A stretch of DNA of 64,000 nucleotides from a virus. Positions 6,946-46,983 of the stretch are shown here, one piece after another. The notes beneath the pieces are model-generated. The model ran no database searches, was not told the DNA's origin, and saw only the letters and a list, made by a program, of their open reading frames with translations. How positions within the stretch are numbered: position 1 is the first letter of the stretch; each line of letters opens with the position of its first letter. A program made the position numbers and the translations under genes. Location: IMG/VR virus record IMGVR_UViG_3300019752_000001. One strand, 5' to 3'.

Positions 6946-8658
6946 CTACATAACACCAAGCTTACTACGGATCTCAGATAGAGTGTATTGGTTGTAGAGT
7001 TCACCATCCTCAAACACAACCTTCAGCTCCCCTTGAGCTTCCTGTTCAACAGTTTGGTTATCATATGTCACATACATCTCCTGTCCATCTTCTCCCTTCT
7101 CAAGCTCAACACGTAACAATCCTTCACGAGAAGCCTTAGACATATCGGTCTTAGGAGTTTTGTTCATACCAAAACCTTCACCACCTACTACGGAGTAACC
7201 TCCCTTCAACGCAATACCATAAGAATCTCGTGAGGAGTTTTTCAGCTTAGCCCAACTACCAACACCAAGCAATAGGTTTGTTACACAGAATCCTAATTCT
7301 TCCATACGGCTATAGATAGCTTCTTGCATCTCCATTGTAATAGCTTCTCCGTAGATCAGTCCAACAGAAGGATGCAACACTTTATAACCTTTCTCGTTAA
7401 CCACCCCTCCAAACACTTCCCAGAGTATTTGTAAACTACCCTTCACTTCTTCTTCTGAGATTTCCTTGTAACTGAGGTTTCCATCAACTTCATAATATTT
7501 ACCTGAAGTTTTGCACCGGAACACCTGATAACCTCGTTGTATTAATGATGGGGTGATGAGGTTGTTAAGACCCCGTCCTTGTAGGTAAGGTCTGAAGTTA
7601 GGAATATCTTTATACCGTTCACCACAAATAACTTCTAGTGGGGTTTTAGGGCTGCTATCAGGACGGAACACAAGCTTACCAGGCAAACCTAAAGAGTCTG
7701 GCTCACGGGACACAATTACAGGTTCAAGCTTAGCAGCTAGCTCTGAGATAACGTAATAGTAATCTTTACTATCTGCTACATAACTCAGAATGCCACGTGG
7801 GTAAACATCTGTCAGGAGACGCTTAAGACTCTCTTCTTCACTTCCGTAATAATGGATACCTTGTGTGGTTGTTGCGTGTTCAGTTGCATTAACAGAGACG
7901 CCAACCCATTCCTTATCACTATCTGCACCATAATATTGTTCAAGTCCATCAATAGCCCATAAAGTGTCTGTTCCAACACCAAACATAAGGTGTGCTACTC
8001 CAGACATCATAGCATCCTGATCACCACGCAGACCACGAGCTGAGAAGTCATGGTTAGCAATAGGCAACCAAGCAGCAGCTGCTTCTGGAGTAGCAGTCTT
8101 CTCAGCCCAGCGCTTACTTGTCAGGAAATACTGTTGAGCTACGGATGCAGAGTTACACATTGACCACACCATACAACTCAGGAATGTCTCACAATTGTTT
8201 GTCAACCAGAAGAAGCGATCATCTGTATTAACTACTGTGAAGAATGGTGTGTTCTTATTAACCAAACTACCTTCAGGGAGGGACTTAATACGCAGAGGAA
8301 GATAACCTAGATCATGTAGGTCAGCCATAGCAGCAATCTGTACATCTCCGTTGTCAGGGCCTACACAGTTTTTAACCCGACGACGATAGGCATTGATAAC
8401 TTTTTCTTTAGGCTGACTGAAGAATGTAGCATTCCAGTTATCCTTCAACATGTGTACAGCCAACTGAACACCCACCATCACCATCTTATCGGTGTTGTTC
8501 TGAGGGATTGTGTGAGCCAGTCTGAAGTTACGAGCTGTACAGCTGCTGTACACTACCTCTGTTCCAGGGACATACTGTTCAATATGACCTAGTTTATAAG
8601 CATCTGTCTTGTGAGCTTGAGAGATGGCGAAAATTGAATTGTTCATTGTGTTAATCAT
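6946..8658 (-). CDS. nadV: Nicotinamide phosphoribosyltransferase-like protein; probable NARP1 Namat
   Basis: TDAYKLGH, HDFSARG, SVNATEH, SYVADS, FRPDS, GLIYGE, GVGS motifs; near a Prs homolog. Confidence 0.9.
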   Translation of the reverse strand: MINTMNNSIFAISQAHKTDAYKLGHIEQYVPGTEVVYSSCTARNFRLAHTIPQNNTDKMVMVGVQLAVHMLKDNWNATFFSQPKEKVINAYRRRVKNCVGPDNGDVQIAAMADLHDLGYLPLRIKSLPEGSLVNKNTPFFTVVNTDDRFFWLTNNCETFLSCMVWSMCNSASVAQQYFLTSKRWAEKTATPEAAAAWLPIANHDFSARGLRGDQDAMMSGVAHLMFGVGTDTLWAIDGLEQYYGADSDKEWVGVSVNATEHATTTQGIHYYGSEEESLKRLLTDVYPRGILSYVADSKDYYYVISELAAKLEPVIVSREPDSLGLPGKLVFRPDSSPKTPLEVICGERYKDIPNFRPYLQGRGLNNLITPSLIQRGYQVFRCKTSGKYYEVDGNLSYKEISEEEVKGSLQILWEVFGGVVNEKGYKVLHPSVGLIYGEAITMEMQEAIYSRMEELGFCVTNLLLGVGSWAKLKNSSRDSYGIALKGGYSVVGGEGFGMNKTPKTDMSKASREGLLRVELEKGEDGQEMYVTYDNQTVEQEAQGELKVVFEDGELYNQYTLSEIRSKLGVM

Positions 8659-13494: not shown

Positions 13495-14589
13495 ATGACT
13501 AAACTTGAATTATCCATCGACCCAGAAGGACTTCCTGGTTGGGGAGTTTGGGAGGCTGTACGAGAGTTTGTACAGAATTGGGCAGACAATACTGAAGATA
13601 GTGATTGGTTCTGGAATGACAACTATGATGGACGTGGAGGTTATCTTTACCTGAGTAACAAAAACACATCACTACCTCGTAAGTCGCTTCTCGTAGGCAA
13701 TAGTACAAAACGTGAGGATAACACTACACGAGGTCGTCATGGGGATGGACTTAAGTCTGCTATGGCTGTATTGTTACGTCAAGGAAAAGAGATTAGAATT
13801 CATAACGATAATGTTGTGTGGACTCCAACTCTCTCTCATTCTGACATATACGGTTGCGAGCTTCTAACTATTGTTGAGCAGGAAGTTGATAGTACAGGGC
13901 ACTTAGAAGTTTTCATTACTATGACCTGTGAAGATTTTGAAACTGTTATAGCTAACTGTCTACTCCTCCAAGAAGATGGTCGTAAGCTACATTCAACAGA
14001 TAAAGGTGACATCCTTCTTGACGAAGAGTACAAAGGTAAGATATTCTGTGGAGGGATCTATGTAAACACTCTTCAGCAGCTTGAGTATGGATATGACTTC
14101 AAACCTGAAGTGTTGTCCCTTGACCGAGACAGACAAGCTATAGACTCCTTTGATATTAAGTGGATCACTAAGGAGATGTGGCGAGAGATCGGAACAGACC
14201 CTGACAAAGCTTCTGATGTAGCTGAGATGATCCATGATGAGATTGAAGATACTAAGTACTTAGTAAGTCACGCAAGTCCTTCTACCTCCCTGAAAGAGGC
14301 AGCTATGGAGATCTATAGAGACAATTACCAAGGGAATATGCTTGCTGAGAGTTTTGTAGAGGCTGAGGAGCTTAAAGCTGCAGGCAATGATAATGTTGTC
14401 TACCTGGGCAAAGAAGACTTCACGAACCTTGTGAAGTCTTCTGACAAGTATAAGACTATTGACTTTGGGATCGTACAGACTGTCAAAACTTCTCCCAAGG
14501 AAAAGGTTGAAAATTGGCTTGAAGAATGGCAAGATGAAATCACAGAAGAGGTGTACATCTCACTGCAAGACTTGATCAATACTTTATAA
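13495..14589 (+). CDS. GHKL (HATPase_c) ATPase domain protein
   Basis: EAVREFVQN..D, GNSTKR, GRHGDGLKSA Bergerat-fold motifs. Confidence 0.8.
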   Translation: MTKLELSIDPEGLPGWGVWEAVREFVQNWADNTEDSDWFWNDNYDGRGGYLYLSNKNTSLPRKSLLVGNSTKREDNTTRGRHGDGLKSAMAVLLRQGKEIRIHNDNVVWTPTLSHSDIYGCELLTIVEQEVDSTGHLEVFITMTCEDFETVIANCLLLQEDGRKLHSTDKGDILLDEEYKGKIFCGGIYVNTLQQLEYGYDFKPEVLSLDRDRQAIDSFDIKWITKEMWREIGTDPDKASDVAEMIHDEIEDTKYLVSHASPSTSLKEAAMEIYRDNYQGNMLAESFVEAEELKAAGNDNVVYLGKEDFTNLVKSSDKYKTIDFGIVQTVKTSPKEKVENWLEEWQDEITEEVYISLQDLINTL

Positions 14590-14640
14590 ACCATCTCACA
14601 AACTACTTTGTAATTAAGATAAACCTAAGAGGAAACAGAC

Positions 14641-14934
14641 ATGACTACTAACAACACCACTACACGTACCATCCGTAACATTGTCCTGCTTGATGAAGAT
14701 TCAAAGCTTCCTGTGGCTGATTCCATTGTTCATAACTTTGGAGATATTGTGACAGAAGATTGTGATCAAGCTACTCTGATGCAGCTTATGGTTGATCACG
14801 ATATTAAAGGTATTATTGATAAACACAACAGTGTGCTAGCTAATCGCGCTAATCAGACAGTGTTGGAACGTACAGGTAAAAGGGTAATGCTACCTCCTAT
14901 CACTATTAAGGACTTGTCTTGGAAGATTAAGTGA
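14641..14934 (+). CDS. Hypothetical phage protein
   Basis: GAGGA RBS, 97 aa. Confidence 0.65.
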   Translation: MTTNNTTTRTIRNIVLLDEDSKLPVADSIVHNFGDIVTEDCDQATLMQLMVDHDIKGIIDKHNSVLANRANQTVLERTGKRVMLPPITIKDLSWKIK

Positions 14935-42430: not shown

Positions 42431-42519
42431 TAGCAGCCTCATGGTGAATCGAACACCTCCGCTCCATCCGTCTGCTGTAATGCGACAGGCTTAGAAGGCC
42501 CGTGACGGAAAATGAGGCT
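42431..42519 (-). ncRNA. Non-canonical tRNA-like RNA, anticodon TCT (Arg), no classical D-arm
   Basis: AGCCTCAT/ATGAGGCT acceptor (extends to 13 bp), CGGGC-CTTCTAA-GCCTG anticodon arm, GGTG-TTCGATT-CACC T-arm; ends GCTA rather than NCCA. Confidence 0.75.
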
Positions 42520-42639
42520 GCTAAAAATACTTACAAAAATACTTAGTGTTGTTTATTTAATAATGAAGACTGGAAGATGAATATCTACACCTTATACATG
42601 TGTAGTGGGATCTTTACACAATCTTCATTGTTAAATATT

Positions 42640-42727
42640 TGGAGGCCCTACGGTGAATCGAACACCTTGACATCCTTCCCTCTGTTTTGTGTCGCAAGCT
42701 TAGGAGGCTTGTGAGGGGAGTAGGGCC
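42640..42727 (-). ncRNA. Non-canonical tRNA-like RNA, anticodon CCT (Arg), no classical D-arm
   Basis: GGCCCTAC/GTAGGGCC acceptor + T-CCA, CAAGC-CTCCTAA-GCTTG anticodon arm, identical 4-bp T-arm. Confidence 0.8.
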
Positions 42728-42731
42728 TTGT

Positions 42732-42805
42732 TGGAGCAGGCGACGAGAATCGAACTCGCATCTTCTGGTTGGAAGCCAGAAATTCTACCATTAAACTACA
42801 CCTGC
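42732..42805 (-). tRNA. tRNA-Gly(TCC)
   Basis: GCAGGTG acceptor, TAGTTTAATGGTAGAA D-arm, TCTGG-CTTCCAA-CCAGA, GTTCGATTC, TCCA end. Confidence 0.95.
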
Positions 42806-42806
42806 T

Positions 42807-42881
42807 TGGTGCCTCCGACTGGTAACGATCCAGAGTCTTCCCGGTTATGAGCCAGGCCGCTTTACCTTAAGCTACAAAGGC
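42807..42881 (-). tRNA. tRNA with CAT anticodon (Met or Ile2)
   Basis: GCCTTTG/CGGAGGC acceptor, CCTGG-CTCATAA-CCGGG, atypical T-loop ATCGTTA, ACCA end. Confidence 0.85.
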
Positions 42882-42890
42882 TACTTCTTA

Positions 42891-43136
42891 TTACACTACT
42901 TCAGTAAACTCCAAAGTCCCTTTCTCAAGATCCTGCTTAGTTTCTCTTAGTAGGTGAGATGATATTGTAGATCTTACCACATCAACCTTTACTATTTCAA
43001 CAAGTTTATCAGGATTGTTTTCAACCTCTTCATAGAATAGATCCAGCATCTCTACAGAGGCATATTCAGCTGCTTGTTTAAAGACTACTGTCTGTCCCAC
43101 TCTTAGCTCGAAACAGGATTTAACTCCATCCCTCAA
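42891..43136 (-). CDS. Hypothetical phage protein
   Basis: 81 aa, GAGG RBS, TTG start. Confidence 0.55.
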   Translation of the reverse strand: MRDGVKSCFELRVGQTVVFKQAAEYASVEMLDLFYEEVENNPDKLVEIVKVDVVRSTISSHLLRETKQDLEKGTLEFTEVV

Positions 43137-43275
43137 GAGAAGACCTCACCACCTTTATTATACTTCTTCTCAAGGTATGTTACAGCCTCTGTGTGTCCAT
43201 TCTTCAATAACACTTCCTTCCACAAATCGCGCATACCTGTTAGTAACATTTCAGCTTTCTCGTATTCAGAGTTTT

Positions 43276-43458
43276 TCATAACACCTGTTCCTTGTTACTG
43301 ATTATAAACTTACGTTTGTCTTCTCTTGACAACCCACAAGGAATCGAGATAGTAGACTCGCTATTTAGCTTAGCCTCCACTACAACCTCGATAGCTCGCT
43401 CAAGACCTATGATGTCTACAGCTTCCTTCAAAACTTCACTTAGTTTTTGGTATATCAT
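43276..43458 (-). CDS. Hypothetical phage protein
   Basis: 60 aa, GAGG RBS. Confidence 0.55.
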   Translation of the reverse strand: MIYQKLSEVLKEAVDIIGLERAIEVVVEAKLNSESTISIPCGLSREDKRKFIISNKEQVL

Positions 43459-43513
43459 AGTCTACCTCAAATTCATTAAACATTTGTTCTCTCCAGTAAA
43501 TTCCTAGAACGCC

Positions 43514-43545
43514 ATATAACAACGCGCTTAGCGCAAAGGTTATGC
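43514..43545 (+). other. Collapsed attC remnant A
   Basis: ATATAAC-AACGCGCTTAGCGCAAAG-GTTATGC. Confidence 0.6.
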
Positions 43546-43845
43546 GAATGCGCTTTGAGCCTTTCCGCGTAGGCGCATAATTAATGTGTCATCCATATAG
43601 TCGTAATCATCAGGTATATTCCATACCTGCATTTTATGACTATACCCTTTATATTTTCTTCTCAGTTTGCTTCTATGGTGGTTCTCCATGCAAACAATTA
43701 TGTCAGCCCAATCCATCTGCTCTTTAGTTATAGGTCTATCTGCATCTCTGTCGGTGCCAGCATAATCCTTTTCAAATCCCCCTAGACTTTGCGCTGCCGT
43801 TTTACTCCTAAGTCTAGCCATACTACATATAAATAAGACTCTCAT
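43540..43845 (-). CDS. Low-molecular-weight protein tyrosine phosphatase-like protein (cassette gene)
   Basis: VLFICSMARLRS (CX5R P-loop), WADIIVCME, IPDDY. Confidence 0.85.
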   Translation of the reverse strand: MRVLFICSMARLRSKTAAQSLGGFEKDYAGTDRDADRPITKEQMDWADIIVCMENHHRSKLRRKYKGYSHKMQVWNIPDDYDYMDDTLIMRLRGKAQSAFA

Positions 43846-43903
43846 AACAATTCAATCAAAGCGGAACTCCGCTTAGCTCCGTCCGTTTATCTCTGGGTTA
43901 TAC
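43842..43903 (+). other. attC site B (62 bp)
   Basis: TCATAAC-AATTCAATCAAAGCGGA...TCCGTTTATCTCTGG-GTTATAC. Confidence 0.8.
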
Positions 43904-44045
43904 CTCTCAACTCTCGTACCTAGGAGGTACAACTATGGATCAGCACCAACTAAAAAGATTTACTTAACCTGCACCTTAAAAAAAATCACCCAGAATATGA
44001 AGAATGGATGCAATTTGATGAGGTCGTCTCTGGCGACTAGTCCTG

Positions 44046-44210
44046 CTACCTTACGGTGTAGTTAAGGGCTAAGTCTGTAGCCTCTTCTTGTGTGAGTCTC
44101 CCTTCCTTTACAGATTCGAGGAAGAACTCCTTCTTAGCCTTAGCTACACGTACCTTGTGCTCGTAATTTTCTATCAAGGAGTTAAAATGTTCTTCAATGA
44201 GGTTCGTCAT
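44046..44210 (-). CDS. Small hypothetical protein (54 aa)
   Basis: Manual translation MTNLIEEHFNSLIENYEHK...NYTVR; GGAG RBS. Confidence 0.55.
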   Translation of the reverse strand: MTNLIEEHFNSLIENYEHKVRVAKAKKEFFLESVKEGRLTQEEATDLALNYTVR

Positions 44211-44254
44211 TAATTATTCTCCATAATCCGTGTTATAAAAGTAAACCAAAGAGG

Positions 44255-44290
44255 TTATGACACACCTCGGCTTTATTAAAAATGTTACAA
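44255..44290 (+). other. Degenerate attC remnant C
   Basis: TTATGAC...GGCTTTATTAAAAAT-GTTACAA; GTTACAAGCTCTTT is complementary (13/14) to AAAGAGCTTATAAC at 44737-44750. Confidence 0.5.
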
Positions 44291-44442
44291 GCTCTTTATC
44301 TAAATGTGCACTCCAGAACTTGACCATTCTGTGCACGATTCACTCAGTCCAGCAAGGAGGTGGGCAAGCACACAGTCTTACTGAAATTCACCCTCTGGTG
44401 GTTGTGACTGGCAGACGCCATACAAACACTGGAGACGATTCC

Positions 44443-44598
44443 ATGATCGAATTGACCATTGTCTTACAGGTTGCCGGTAGTATTGTCCCTGTAAGCTTGG
44501 TTCAGGTTGCAGTTGAAAATGCTGCTGCGATTAAGGATCTGGCCGCTGCCGCGTATTTGCTGTCCAAGGCAAATAAGATCTTTCGCAAGAAAACCTAA
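44443..44598 (+). CDS. Small hydrophobic peptide with basic tail (cassette gene)
   Basis: GGAG RBS; MIELTIVLQVAGSIVPV...KIFRKKT. Confidence 0.5.
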   Translation: MIELTIVLQVAGSIVPVSLVQVAVENAAAIKDLAAAAYLLSKANKIFRKKT

Positions 44599-44743
44599 CC
44601 AATAATTCTCTAAGCTTTTCTGAAGCTTCCAGAACCAAACTGATCAAATTGGAACATAGAAAATAAATCTCAAATTAGTAGCGTCTTACCCTCACATGAC
44701 TGTTGAGTTTGGCGCTCACCAAATAGTTAGTACAACAAAGAGC

Positions 44744-44802
44744 TTATAACAAAGCAATCCAACCGGACTGCGCTTCGCTTGCCGCTGTTTGCGGCGTTAT
44801 GT
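44744..44802 (+). other. attC site D (59 bp)
   Basis: TTATAAC-AAAGCAATCCAACCGG...CGCTTCGC...CCGCTGTTTGCGGC-GTTATGT. Confidence 0.85.
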
Positions 44803-44845
44803 TTATCTAGTTCTATTCCTAACCGTTAAGAAAGGAGTTCTTATT

Positions 44846-45058
44846 ATGTCTGAATTAAACGTCTCTCTTGGAACTTACAAATGTATCAAGTGCGGTAATG
44901 AAGAGTTCCCACTCTCCAGTGACTTCCAACTTAGTGACGAGGTTTCCTGCCTCAATTGTGGATTCACTGCTCGCTACGAAGAACTCAGGCAAGCCCACGT
45001 CGAGCAAACATTTGAAGAATCTGCGCAATTCGTTAGGGACTTCCTCAGAATTAAGTAG
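44846..45058 (+). CDS. Small Zn-ribbon protein (cassette gene)
   Basis: AAGGAG RBS; CIKCG...CLNCG. Confidence 0.7.
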   Translation: MSELNVSLGTYKCIKCGNEEFPLSSDFQLSDEVSCLNCGFTARYEELRQAHVEQTFEESAQFVRDFLRIK

Positions 45059-45133
45059 CTCTTTTAGACGAGAAAGTTCTTTAGTGTAATCCTCTGTGTC
45101 GAAAAGAATTTTCCCTGTTCTTTGTTTTTCCAT
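44855..45133 (-). CDS. Antisense ORF overlapping the Zn-ribbon gene
   Basis: 92 aa open frame with GAGG RBS 5 nt before ATG. Confidence 0.45.
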   Translation of the reverse strand: MEKQRTGKILFDTEDYTKELSRLKELLNSEEVPNELRRFFKCLLDVGLPEFFVASSESTIEAGNLVTKLEVTGEWELFITALDTFVSSKRDV

Positions 45134-45170
45134 AAAAACCTCATACGGTGGATAGTTAGTCAATTTTAAA

Positions 45171-45189
45171 ACATAACAAAGTGTTACAT
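45171..45189 (+). other. Collapsed attC remnant E
   Basis: ACATAAC-AAAGT-GTTACAT; AAACATAAC is perfectly complementary to the cassette start GTTATGTTT (44796). Confidence 0.6.
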
Positions 45190-45255
45190 GTTCACCTGCA
45201 CTCCTACAACCAAGCTGGAGCGCTCTTTAACACCAAGTCCAAGGAGGACTTATTT

Positions 45256-45477
45256 ATGTCTGATTACCACTTTAAACAGGGTTTTAACCCTAAATGCCTG
45301 TCTTGCGAAAAAGAGAATATCAAGATTTCTCTAAGCGAACACCTATACGGACCTTGCAATGGCCAGTACGAAGTTATTTACTGTGGAGATTGTAAAACAT
45401 TCTTAGGTGCCCACCCAATTGTAGTCAGTAATTTATTTAAAAACTTGCCTACAGATTTGGAAATTAATCACGGTTAA
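45256..45477 (+). CDS. Small Zn-ribbon protein (cassette gene)
   Basis: AAGGAGG RBS; CLSC...YCGDC..FLG. Confidence 0.7.
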   Translation: MSDYHFKQGFNPKCLSCEKENIKISLSEHLYGPCNGQYEVIYCGDCKTFLGAHPIVVSNLFKNLPTDLEINHG

Positions 45478-45676
45478 GTAGTGCAATCTTGATCTTTTCC
45501 TTTTCAATATTGAGATGGTGGATAATCTCTTCTATCATCTCAATCTGATACTGCCCGTTGGAAGAGAAAGTGTTGAGTCGCTTAACCTCGTCGCTGAGGT
45601 TATTAAAGGTCCATTCATTTTTCAAAAGTTTACTCACAATAAAATTACCCCATTCTAATTTGAATATACGAAACAT
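45464..45676 (-). CDS. Hypothetical protein convergent with the Zn-ribbon gene in the same cassette
   Basis: Open frame; its ATG lies in the attC inverse core site (CATAAC); start uncertain. Confidence 0.45.
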   Translation of the reverse strand: MFRIFKLEWGNFIVSKLLKNEWTFNNLSDEVKRLNTFSSNGQYQIEMIEEIIHHLNIEKEKIKIALLNRD

Positions 45677-45746
45677 AACAAGCGTAAACACAGGACAAGC
45701 CTCATTCGCTACGCTCAATCGTTTGCCCGTGTTACGGGCGTTATTA
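45673..45746 (+). other. attC site F (74 bp)
   Basis: ACATAAC-AAG-CGTAAACACAGG...CCGTGTTACG-GGC-GTTATTA with two extrahelical bases. Confidence 0.85.
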
Positions 45747-45838
45747 CTAGGTGCTTTATTTCTCATTAGTGCAATCAGCCACCAACTCATTCAATTGTTT
45801 AGTTAGGACCGATAGAGCTATCTCCAACACTTTAATTA

Positions 45839-46039
45839 TCAGTGAGCTTCAATCAACCTCTTAATATCTCGGTAAGCCTCTTGATGCCCAACCTTCACAC
45901 CATACTCATAAGAGTCATCAAGGTTTCCATTATCCCAATGATCTACCTCAAAGTCAAAGTTATCATTAATAAGGTTGTCTAGTGAGTCGAGTAGTTCTTG
46001 CATCTTGTTATCCATTGTAGTCACCATCTCCTGTTTCAA
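45839..46039 (-). CDS. Hypothetical acidic protein
   Basis: Behind the promoter at 46056-46084; true start probably slightly downstream. Confidence 0.6.
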   Translation of the reverse strand: MKQEMVTTMDNKMQELLDSLDNLINDNFDFEVDHWDNGNLDDSYEYGVKVGHQEAYRDIKRLIEAH

Positions 46040-46055
46040 AAATTAAACATTCCCT

Positions 46056-46084
46056 ATTATAAACCTAGCAGTCTGCATAGTCAA
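46056..46084 (-). promoter_or_regulatory. sigma70 promoter pointing into the cassette array and tRNA cluster
   Basis: TTGACT-17nt-TATAAT. Confidence 0.8.
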
Positions 46085-46274
46085 CAGAGGAAGGTTTCAT
46101 TTGTTAAGATCTTTATTAGCGATCACCTCATTCACTGCAGACATCACGTTTATGTAACTTCCAGCCCACCACAGAGGACTAGTGTAAGACTTGTACATCT
46201 TGTGGTAAAGGGAGGGTGTAAACATATTCTTCTCCTTGTACTGTTTAGTATGTCTTAGAGCTTCTGTAAGCCGT

Positions 46275-46337
46275 CTAGGAGAGGCGTTACCTTATAGGTA
46301 TACAATCACACTACCTGCTTAGTAAAACCTCTCCTAG
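46275..46337. repeat. Dispersed palindromic intergenic element (family member)
   Basis: CTAGGAGAGG/CCTCTCCTAG arms; loop with TGTGATTGTATACCT on the minus strand. Confidence 0.65.
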
Positions 46338-46368
46338 TCGCGTTTAACTCCTGTGTAGTAAGGAGCTC

Positions 46369-46983
46369 TTATGCTTCTTCCTGCTCAAGCTTAGTCAGTT
46401 CCTTCTGAAGCTTCTTGATAGCCTTTTTCAGCTTCTTACGCTTACGGGATGGAGAAGGAGATTGTGTAGTAGCCTCTTTCTCTTCTTTTACAAGCTCCCA
46501 TGAGCATACAGCTGCAGGGATTGGGTCTGAGAAGGAGAGGATTAGTTCTGGTAGTTTTCTATCAATGTATCTCTCTTTATTCTTATGATAAAGTACCTTG
46601 TGTTGCTTATCTATAGACAAAAACTTCTCAGAAAGCATCTCTTCTGTTAAATCTTCACTACTTTGCCACTTACAACCATTATCCTTCAACCATTGACGCA
46701 CCTCAGGACGATCCCCACAGGACAACTTAAAAGGTGTTTGTGGGAATGACTGTGTAGGGTTGTTCATTGTATTGTCCTCTGGTAGTTGTGTTAGTCGTTT
46801 TTCGAAACTCAAAAGGTGGGATTCTCCTTCTTTTGAGATAAAATGTATCCACTTTCTGTTGTCATCACGTTCAACCTTTACTTTATCTCCTAAGAAGAAA
46901 TTTTTGTAGTATGCGCTTACAACCGTAAACACTCCTTTTGGGTCAAACCCTTCATCTTCACACCACTTCTCAAACTTAGTCAT
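46369..46983 (-). CDS. Hypothetical protein sharing a domain with 12828..13484
   Basis: CGDRPEVR.WL...GC.W domain; basic C-terminal tail. Confidence 0.7.
   Translation of the reverse strand: MTKFEKWCEDEGFDPKGVFTVVSAYYKNFFLGDKVKVERDDNRKWIHFISKEGESHLLSFEKRLTQLPEDNTMNNPTQSFPQTPFKLSCGDRPEVRQWLKDNGCKWQSSEDLTEEMLSEKFLSIDKQHKVLYHKNKERYIDRKLPELILSFSDPIPAAVCSWELVKEEKEATTQSPSPSRKRKKLKKAIKKLQKELTKLEQEEA

What the first reader, a model, noticed from the sequence alone, without database searches (positions are those of the whole stretch)
43514..45746. Integron cassette array (attC sites, no integrase) embedded in a lytic phage next to its tRNA cluster
Seen: three complete TAAC...GTTA imperfect palindromes of 62, 59 and 74 bp (43842, 44744, 45673) with attC-style inner arms and extrahelical bases, all in the same orientation, plus remnants at 43514, 44255 and 45171. 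Cassette ends are complementary, as expected for units integrated from circles: GTTATGC/TCATAAC, GTTACAAGCTCTTT/AAAGAGCTTATAAC, GTTATGTTT/AAACATAAC. Established: attC sites are substrates of IntI tyrosine recombinases. No intI is present in this window. Inference: the phage acquires or shuffles genes using a host integron integrase in trans, making this a phage accessory hotspot and a possible route for cassette spread.
Basis: partly seen in the sequence, partly recalled or inferred. Interest (0 to 1): 0.85.

Follow-up and report, generated by a model that had tools for sequence, protein, structure and literature searches.

The report
Integron cassette array inside a phage
A 2-kb stretch of this large lytic-type phage is a genuine integron gene-cassette array with no integrase of its own; such arrays in phages were already described in 2023, and here one cassette and one recombination site are also found in two other phages.

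Summary

I built an attC covariance model from 85 attC sites lying beside IntI genes.
- 45673-45746, 34.8 bits
- 44744-44802, 29.0 bits
- 43842-43903, 20.4 bits

Background tops out at 12 bits. Held-out real arrays score 19-55 bits, and published phage attCs (TJE1) score 32-44.

The cassette ORF 45256-45477 has homologues named from Vibrio. It sits as a canonical attC-ORF-attC cassette in a 9-attC metagenomic array and in two other phage contigs. One of these has an attC 89% identical to the site at 44744. The other is a complete 140-kb phage with three attCs and no integrase.

No IntI is in the window. The three "remnants" are not supported by the model.

This is a CALIN (a cluster of attC sites lacking an integrase). 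Qi et al. 2023 (PMC9892861) already described CALINs in virulent phages, and this scan has noted similar arrays on other DNA. It is therefore a new member of a known kind. Use of a host IntI in trans is inferred, not shown.

The parts
43514..43545 (+). Weak attC-like site S0 (ATATAAC...GTTATGC around a GCGC-TTA-GCGC hairpin). It may be a collapsed attC, or simply the terminator of the phosphatase-like gene.
   Evidence: R1 gives 12.4 bits, E 1.5, the 4th hit in the window but at background level. It is terminator-like on the - strand.
43540..43845 (-). Small LMW-PTP-like phosphatase gene (CX5R motif). Its ATG overlaps the R'' core of the next attC. It is probably phage backbone rather than cargo.
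   Evidence: Pfam PF01451 at E 2e-4. 35 homologues found. 14 phage loci carry homologues, with no attC in 188 kb.
43842..43903 (+). attC site S1, degenerate: R'' TCATAAC, L'' AAAGCGGAAC, R' GTTATAC.
   Evidence: R1 gives 20.4 bits, E 0.023. Its first 15 nt after the core equal an aadA-type attC in L058.
44046..44210 (-). 54-aa ORF with a Shine-Dalgarno site, inside cassette 2, on the phage-sense strand.
   Evidence: no family hit
44248..44298 (+). Imperfect palindrome S1b with 14-nt arms (AAAGAGGTTATGAC / GTTACAAGCTCTTT). It is a possible collapsed attC but is not supported by the model.
   Evidence: Inverted repeat I6 and direct repeat D4. Not reported by R1. Fold z -0.5 to -1.1.
44443..44598 (+). 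51-aa hydrophobic ORF in cassette sense.
   Evidence: no family hit
44650..44722 (+). Conserved non-coding element just upstream of attC S2. The same element lies upstream of an attC in phage contig L173.
   Evidence: blastn 83% identity over 41 nt; alignment A7
44744..44802 (+). attC site S2.
   Evidence: R1 gives 29.0 bits, E 2.6e-4. It is 89.5% identical over 57 nt to attC4 of L173.
44846..45058 (+). Zn-ribbon ORF Zn1 (CxxC...CxxC), in cassette sense.
   Evidence: NCBIfam NF047912 at E 9e-6, below the family cut-off. Weak tblastn hit inside a cassette of the chromosomal array L163.
45169..45192 (+). Mini-palindrome S2b (AAACATAAC-AAAGT-GTTACATGTT). It is a possible collapsed attC but is not supported by the model.
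   Evidence: repeat D18; not reported by R1; fold z -0.6
45256..45477 (+). Zn-ribbon ORF Zn2, the best-documented cassette gene.
   Evidence: 14 homologues, some named from Vibrio metschnikovii and V. parahaemolyticus. Flanked by attCs on the same strand in L171, L173 and L179.
45464..45637 (-). 57-aa ORF convergent with Zn2, overlapping it tail to tail by 14 nt.
   Evidence: The same convergent, overlapping arrangement is seen in L173 (17 nt) and L179 (17 nt). Sequence similarity is only marginal.
45673..45746 (+). attC site S3, the best site, with canonical R''-spacer-L''...L'-spacer-R' geometry and a bulged A in GGAC.
   Evidence: R1 gives 34.8 bits, E 1.3e-5.
42732..42881 (-). tRNA-Gly and tRNA-Met genes adjacent to the array (context only).

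Best explanation
Positions 43.8-45.75 kb of this roughly 140-kb myovirus are a CALIN: a short integron-type gene-cassette array without its own integrase. Three attC sites in one orientation bound two multi-gene cassettes of about 0.9 kb each. The array lies antisense to the flanking phage genes, about 1 kb from the tRNA genes. The cassettes and sites come from the integron cassette pool of low-GC marine Gammaproteobacteria, probably Vibrio-like hosts.

Shown: site identity, orientation, end complementarity, cassette homology, and absence of IntI in the window.

Inferred: the cassettes were joined at G|TT by an integron integrase supplied in trans by an infected host, and the same enzyme could still excise or add cassettes through the folded bottom strands of S3 and S2.
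For: 1. Model R1 was trained only on attCs beside IntI genes. It ranks the three sites 1-3 in 64 kb, all on the + strand, at 34.8, 29.0 and 20.4 bits against at most 12 bits for background.
2. Held-out real arrays score 19-55 bits on the top strand and at most 12 on the reverse. The published phage CALINs TJE1 (three sites, 32-44 bits) and MW202573 are recovered. 188 kb of other phage DNA gives no hit.
3. Low-GC chromosomal arrays use the same cores, ACATAACAAG...GGCGTTATGT.
4. R' of one site is complementary to R'' of the next: S2 to S3 9/9, S1 to S2 6/7. The same holds in L173 (7/7, 9/9, 9/9) and L179 (8/8, 8/9).
5. Zn2 homologues lie as attC-ORF-attC cassettes in L171 (9 attCs), L173 and L179, and some are named from Vibrio.
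6. S2 is 89.5% identical to an attC of L173, a phage whose core proteins are only about 45% identical to this one and whose array lies at a different locus.
7. There is no IntI in the window. There is none in the complete, terminally repeated 140,374-bp phage behind L179, which has exactly three attCs.
Against: - The canonical hairpins are thermodynamically weak (-4 to -12 kcal/mol). The minimum-energy fold gives the full attC hairpin for none of the three; S2 pairs its R box but then branches into a Y.
- S1 is degenerate, with a long 3' spacer.
- R1 is my own model, not IntegronFinder's, and its E-values are rough.
- About 76 kb of the contig outside the window could not be searched for intI, because no genome is held.
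- No close relative of this phage was found, so cassette-precise gain or loss at this locus could not be tested.
Confidence: 0.8

Rival explanations
1. Fossil fragment. A piece of a host chromosomal integron array was picked up once by illegitimate or homologous recombination and is now decaying. The sites are no longer substrates, and the genes persist only if they are useful to the phage.
For: S1 is degenerate and S2 folds non-canonically. There are possible collapsed sites at 43514, 44248 and 45169. The array begins and ends with an attC, not with the hybrid G|TT junction expected from insertion into a secondary site.
Against: End complementarity is kept across sites (9/9 for S2 to S3). S3 scores like functional attCs. 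A near-identical attC and a homologous cassette occur at a different locus in a phage only about 45% identical in core proteins, which argues for recent movement of cassettes rather than one old capture.
Confidence: 0.3
2. The cassettes are moved by a phage-encoded recombinase outside the window, for example a Xer-like tyrosine recombinase as in integron-like arrays of Bacteroidota phages, and not by a host IntI.
For: Only 64 of about 140 kb were visible. Earlier notes of this scan describe phage arrays that use their own recombinase.
Against: The sites match the bacterial IntI-type attC model in sequence as well as structure. The complete 140-kb phage with a homologous array has no hit to the integron-integrase model at E up to 0.01, a model that picks up ordinary tyrosine recombinases in all 14 control genomes.
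Confidence: 0.07
3. These are ordinary phage regulatory hairpins (bidirectional terminators, or promoter-terminator 'PeSL'-type motifs as in T4-like hyperplastic regions) that merely resemble attC sites.
For: Terminator-like sites are enriched in 42.5-46.5 kb (11 found against 2.4 expected), and five of them lie inside the sites. TTGTTA-N18-TAGAAT on the - strand at S3 looks like a sigma-70 promoter.
Against: Promoter-like sites are not enriched (7 found against 8.0 expected), and only one site carries one. The elements match attCs trained on bacterial integrons at 20-35 bits. They share cores and loop motifs with chromosomal attCs. They flank a gene family that is a cassette in a 9-attC array. 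attCs are known to act as weak terminators, so the two readings are compatible.
Confidence: 0.03

Closest known systems
[quoted passage not shown] MW202573 (Qi et al. 2023, PMC9892861)
   Same: A few co-oriented attC sites bound small genes of unknown function inside a lytic-type phage, with no intI. Site scores are comparable (TJE1 32-44 bits, here 20-35). In that paper IntI1 recombined 5 of 6 tested phage attCs in trans.
   Different: This is a different, much larger phage (about 140 kb) with no DNA match among 50,697 phage records. The cassettes hold several ORFs on both strands. The same cassette family and a near-identical attC recur in two other phage contigs. No assay was done here.
Sedentary chromosomal integrons of Vibrio and other marine Gammaproteobacteria
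   Same: The same core sequences (RYATAACAA ... GCGTTATRY), the same R''/L''/L'/R' geometry with a bulged base, cassette-end complementarity, and small cargo of unknown function. One cargo family has members named from Vibrio.
   Different: There is no IntI, attI or Pc promoter. There are only three sites, which are heterogeneous and short (59-74 nt) rather than a long homogeneous array.
PeSL promoter-terminator cassettes of T4-type hyperplastic regions (Arbiol et al. 2010, PMC2839356)
   Same: Small genes of unknown function in a plastic phage region near tRNA genes, bounded by hairpin-containing repeats thought to mediate shuffling.
   Different: PeSLs work by homologous recombination between a conserved early promoter plus stem-loop. 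The sites here lack a shared promoter and instead match the integron attC model.

Membership tests
CALIN / integron cassette array | At least two attC sites detected by an attC covariance model, less than 4 kb apart | tested here: met
   R1 gives 34.8, 29.0 and 20.4 bits, E 1.3e-5 to 0.023 in 128 kb searched, with spacing of about 0.9 kb. The model is my own, validated. IntegronFinder's model was not available.
CALIN / integron cassette array | attC architecture: R''(..AAC)-spacer-L'' ... L'-spacer-R'(GTT..) with a bulged base, able to fold as a hairpin | tested here: inconclusive
   The model alignment gives full-length matches (positions 1-69) for all three sites. S3 has canonical geometry. 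The free minimum-energy fold gives the full attC hairpin for none of the three; S2 pairs its R box but then branches.
CALIN / integron cassette array | All sites in the same orientation | tested here: met
   All are on the + strand. Real sites score at most 12 bits on the wrong strand.
CALIN / integron cassette array | R' of site n complementary to R'' of site n+1 (cassettes joined at G|TT) | tested here: met
   S2 to S3 9/9, S1 to S2 6/7, S0 to S1 6/7. The same holds in L173 and L179.
CALIN / integron cassette array | No integron integrase nearby | tested here: met
   31 IntI queries and an IntI HMM against six frames of the window gave nothing above noise. The rest of the contig was not searchable.
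CALIN / integron cassette array | Cargo genes that occur as cassettes in other integron arrays | tested here: met
   Zn2 homologues are flanked by co-oriented attCs in L171, L173 and L179. Zn1 has only a weak hit in L163.
CALIN / integron cassette array | Sites are recombined by IntI | not testable with these tools
   Needs an attC x attI or attC x attC assay.
Complete integron | intI gene with adjacent attI and Pc promoter | tested here: not met
   No IntI in the window.
PeSL-type phage regulatory cassettes | A shared early promoter plus stem-loop motif at each boundary | tested here: not met
   Only one of the sites has a sigma-70-like match, and promoter-like sites are not enriched.

The most novel reading that the evidence does not exclude
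Large virulent phages of integron-bearing marine bacteria keep and exchange their own pool of integron cassettes, using host IntI. These cassettes have short AT-rich attCs, are inserted antisense between phage genes, and often carry a cassette-sense gene overlapping tail to tail with a phage-sense small ORF.

The evidence not excluding this: three distinct phages carry the same Zn-ribbon cassette, and two phages about 45% identical in core proteins share an 89%-identical attC at different loci.
Probability: 0.35. Interest if true: 0.7.

Novelty: new member of a known kind. Interest (0 to 1): 0.45.

Why it matters
It adds a well-documented case to the short published list of phage CALINs. It goes a step further than a single-genome prediction, because the same cassette family and a near-identical attC turn up in distinct phages and in a bacterial-type array. 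That is the kind of evidence needed to argue that phages take part in integron cassette traffic.

It also hints at the host: an integron-bearing, Vibrio-like bacterium. And it supplies concrete sites (S2, S3) for a recombination assay.

Tried and rejected
**Searches for relatives that found nothing**
- megablast and blastn of the region against 50,697 phage records matched only the tRNAs.
- Rfam matched only the tRNAs.
- Flanking proteins (204 aa, phrog_1732, tail sheath) found no close relative of this phage in IMG/VR.
- tblastn of Zn2 against named phages and plasmids found nothing.

**Tools or data not available**
- No genome is held for the window.

**Attempts to place Zn2 in a named bacterial integron**
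- 10 IntI-bearing genomes, 401 genomes of one order and 401 of one family gave no hit.

**Other dead ends**
- The k-mer homologue search for Zn1 found nothing.
- attC-derived DNA patterns in IMG/VR gave one unrelated high-GC contig and nothing else.
- The AlphaFold model of Zn2 (pLDDT 70.5) had no significant PDB match, only generic Zn-ribbon folds.
- PADLOC had no convincing hit.

**Readings rejected**
- My first reading, that the sites are back-to-back terminators plus a TTGTTA -35 box, was dropped.
- I do not treat the phosphatase-like gene as cargo: its homologues in 14 phage loci have no attC nearby.

**Provenance note**
One of the 31 IntI queries (L112) comes from the unpublished genome G043. 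The negative result does not depend on it, and no attC training site comes from the unpublished genomes.

Full report
**What is there**

The window is part of a large myovirus. It encodes a tail sheath, tape measure, Neck1-type protein and DNA polymerase. The gene caller's copy of one of its proteins sits on a 139,819-bp contig. The phage has no DNA match among 50,697 phage records and only about 35% protein identity to rV5-like phages.

From about 24 kb to 50 kb the genes run on the - strand. Two tRNA genes lie at 42732-42881.

**First impression, later dropped**

Unconstrained DNA folds did not give long attC-type hairpins. Terminator-like hairpins were enriched in 42.5-46.5 kb (11 found against 2.4 expected), and several lay inside the sites. 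One site also overlapped a sigma-70-like promoter on the - strand. I therefore first favoured back-to-back terminators.

**The decisive test**

No attC model is in Rfam, so I built one.
1. I took IntI1 from plasmid pEC958 and fetched 80 IntI loci from bacterial genomes.
2. I found IntI in 150 of 401 further genomes and fetched 40 array-side regions.
3. I collected 287 palindromic RYYYAAC...GTTRRRY sites in the orientation set by intI.
4. I reduced these to 85 non-redundant sites and aligned them (A3).
5. I derived 21 consensus pairs from their folds and built model R1.

Four low-GC arrays were held out of training.

| Search with R1 | Result |
|---|---|
| Whole window, filters off, hit 1 | 45673-45746, 34.8 bits, E 1.3e-5 |
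| Hit 2 | 44744-44802, 29.0 bits, E 2.6e-4 |
| Hit 3 | 43842-43903, 20.4 bits, E 0.023 |
| Hit 4 | 43514-43545, 12.4 bits |
| Best hit elsewhere in the window | 12.0 bits |
| Held-out real arrays, top strand | 19-55 bits |
| Held-out real arrays, reverse strand | at most 12 bits |
| Published CALIN of Tetrasphaera phage TJE1 | three sites, 32-44 bits |
| Published CALIN of MW202573 | five sites |
| 188 kb of unrelated phage DNA | no hit |

The low-GC chromosomal arrays use the very cores seen here (ACATAACAAG...GGCGTTATGT) and similar TCGCTNCGCTC loop motifs. R1's E-values are rough, but the ranking, co-orientation and clustering are unambiguous.

**Cassette hallmarks**

R' of each site is complementary to R'' of the next:
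- S2 to S3: GTTATGTTT / AAACATAAC, 9/9
- S1 to S2: 6/7, plus a shared AGAG
- S0 to S1: 6/7

This is what is expected if the units were joined at G|TT.

The short elements at 44248-44298 and 45169-45192 keep core-like arms. However, R1 does not find them and they fold no better than shuffled sequence. I treat them as unproven remnants. S0 is at noise level for R1.

**Cargo**

The + strand ORF at 45256-45477 is a CxxC...CxxC Zn-ribbon with a strong ribosome-binding site. It has 14 homologues at 55-88% identity, several named from Vibrio metschnikovii and V. parahaemolyticus. Fetching their relatives gave three informative loci.

- **L171.** A 9.9-kb metagenome contig with nine co-oriented attCs (25-53 bits). 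The homologue sits between two of them, on the same strand.
- **L173.** A 5.9-kb contig with four attCs and the homologue as a cassette. Its flanks are phage genes: nicotinamide phosphoribosyltransferase, an NMN adenylyltransferase-Nudix protein and a phrog_6077 protein. The last is about 45% identical to window gene 13495-14589.
- **L179.** Part of a complete 140,374-bp phage with terminal repeats. It has exactly three attCs in the whole genome, the homologue lies between two of them, and there is no integrase hit. It is not a close relative of the window phage.

Attc4 of L173 is 89.5% identical to S2 over 57 nt. A further stretch of about 70 nt upstream of S2 is also conserved. This is far above the divergence of the two phages, and the arrays lie at different loci, which points to recent cassette movement.

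The second Zn-ribbon ORF (44846-45058) has weak hits to NCBIfam NF047912 and to a cassette of the chromosomal array L163.

The phosphatase-like gene at 43540-43845 is probably phage backbone. Its homologues in 14 phage loci have no attC nearby.

**Integrase**

No IntI is present in the window. The remaining 76 kb or so of the contig could not be searched.

**How it most likely works**

The array is a CALIN. The most economical account is that cassettes entered the phage genome by IntI-catalysed recombination while the phage replicated in an integron-bearing host. Phage replication gives abundant single-stranded DNA for attC folding, and damage-type signals could induce the host intI. S3, and probably S2, would remain substrates.

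This step is inferred, but it has precedent: IntI1 recombined 5 of 6 tested attCs from virulent phages (PMC9892861).

A fossil capture from a host array is the main rival. It is supported by the degenerate S1, the non-canonical minimum-energy folds and the fact that the arrays start with a full attC.

**Novelty**

CALINs in virulent phages are published. This scan has also noted phage attC arrays on other DNA many times. This is a new member of a known kind. The added value is the cross-phage sharing of a cassette and an attC.

**Limits**

- The attC model is my own.
- The Vibrio homologues could not be placed in a superintegron.
- The function of the cargo is unknown.
- One IntI query came from an unpublished genome (G043). 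No claim depends on it.

Noticed in passing
window 44650-44722; L173 3575-3645: A non-coding stretch of about 70 nt just upstream of an attC is conserved between two distantly related phages (41 nt at 83% by blastn, with an exact 18-nt core TCAAATTAGTAGCGTCTT). The ORFs before it are unrelated. It could be a small RNA, a promoter or another cassette-borne element.
   Followed up: partly
window 45256-45637; L173 3719-4163; L179 5980-6367 and 4862-5301: In all three phage arrays the cassette-sense Zn-ribbon gene overlaps tail to tail (14-17 nt) with a small helical ORF on the phage-sense strand that starts next to the attC. The partners are not demonstrably homologous (E 0.033 at best). The bacterial-type array L171 has no such partner.
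   Followed up: partly
window 43842-45746; L173 2056-4257; L179 4763-6454: All three phage CALINs lie antisense to the flanking phage genes, in intergenic gaps. In two of them the first attC overlaps the start codon or ribosome-binding site of the adjacent phage gene.
   Followed up: partly
window 43540-43845: A family of very small (about 100 aa) LMW-PTP-like proteins with an intact CX5R(S) motif is widespread in phage contigs: 35 relatives, and 14 IMG/VR loci.
   Followed up: partly
window 43922-43968: A strong Shine-Dalgarno site (TAGGAGGT) is followed by a 10-codon micro-ORF on the + strand, just after attC S1.
   Followed up: no
L171 3129-3338: The Zn-ribbon homologue in the 9-attC array has an in-frame TAA at the conserved Gln of PxNGQYEV, so that copy may be a pseudogene.
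   Followed up: no
window 42500-46500: Terminator-like hairpins are enriched (11 found against 2.4 expected), and five of them lie inside the attC-like sites on one strand or the other. The attCs may double as bidirectional terminators between convergent genes.
   Followed up: partly
window 6946-8658 and 13495-14934: tblastx against L173 shows a nicotinamide phosphoribosyltransferase-like gene and a phrog_6077-type gene pair in the window. This marks L173 as a distant relative whose array sits at a different locus.
   Followed up: partly
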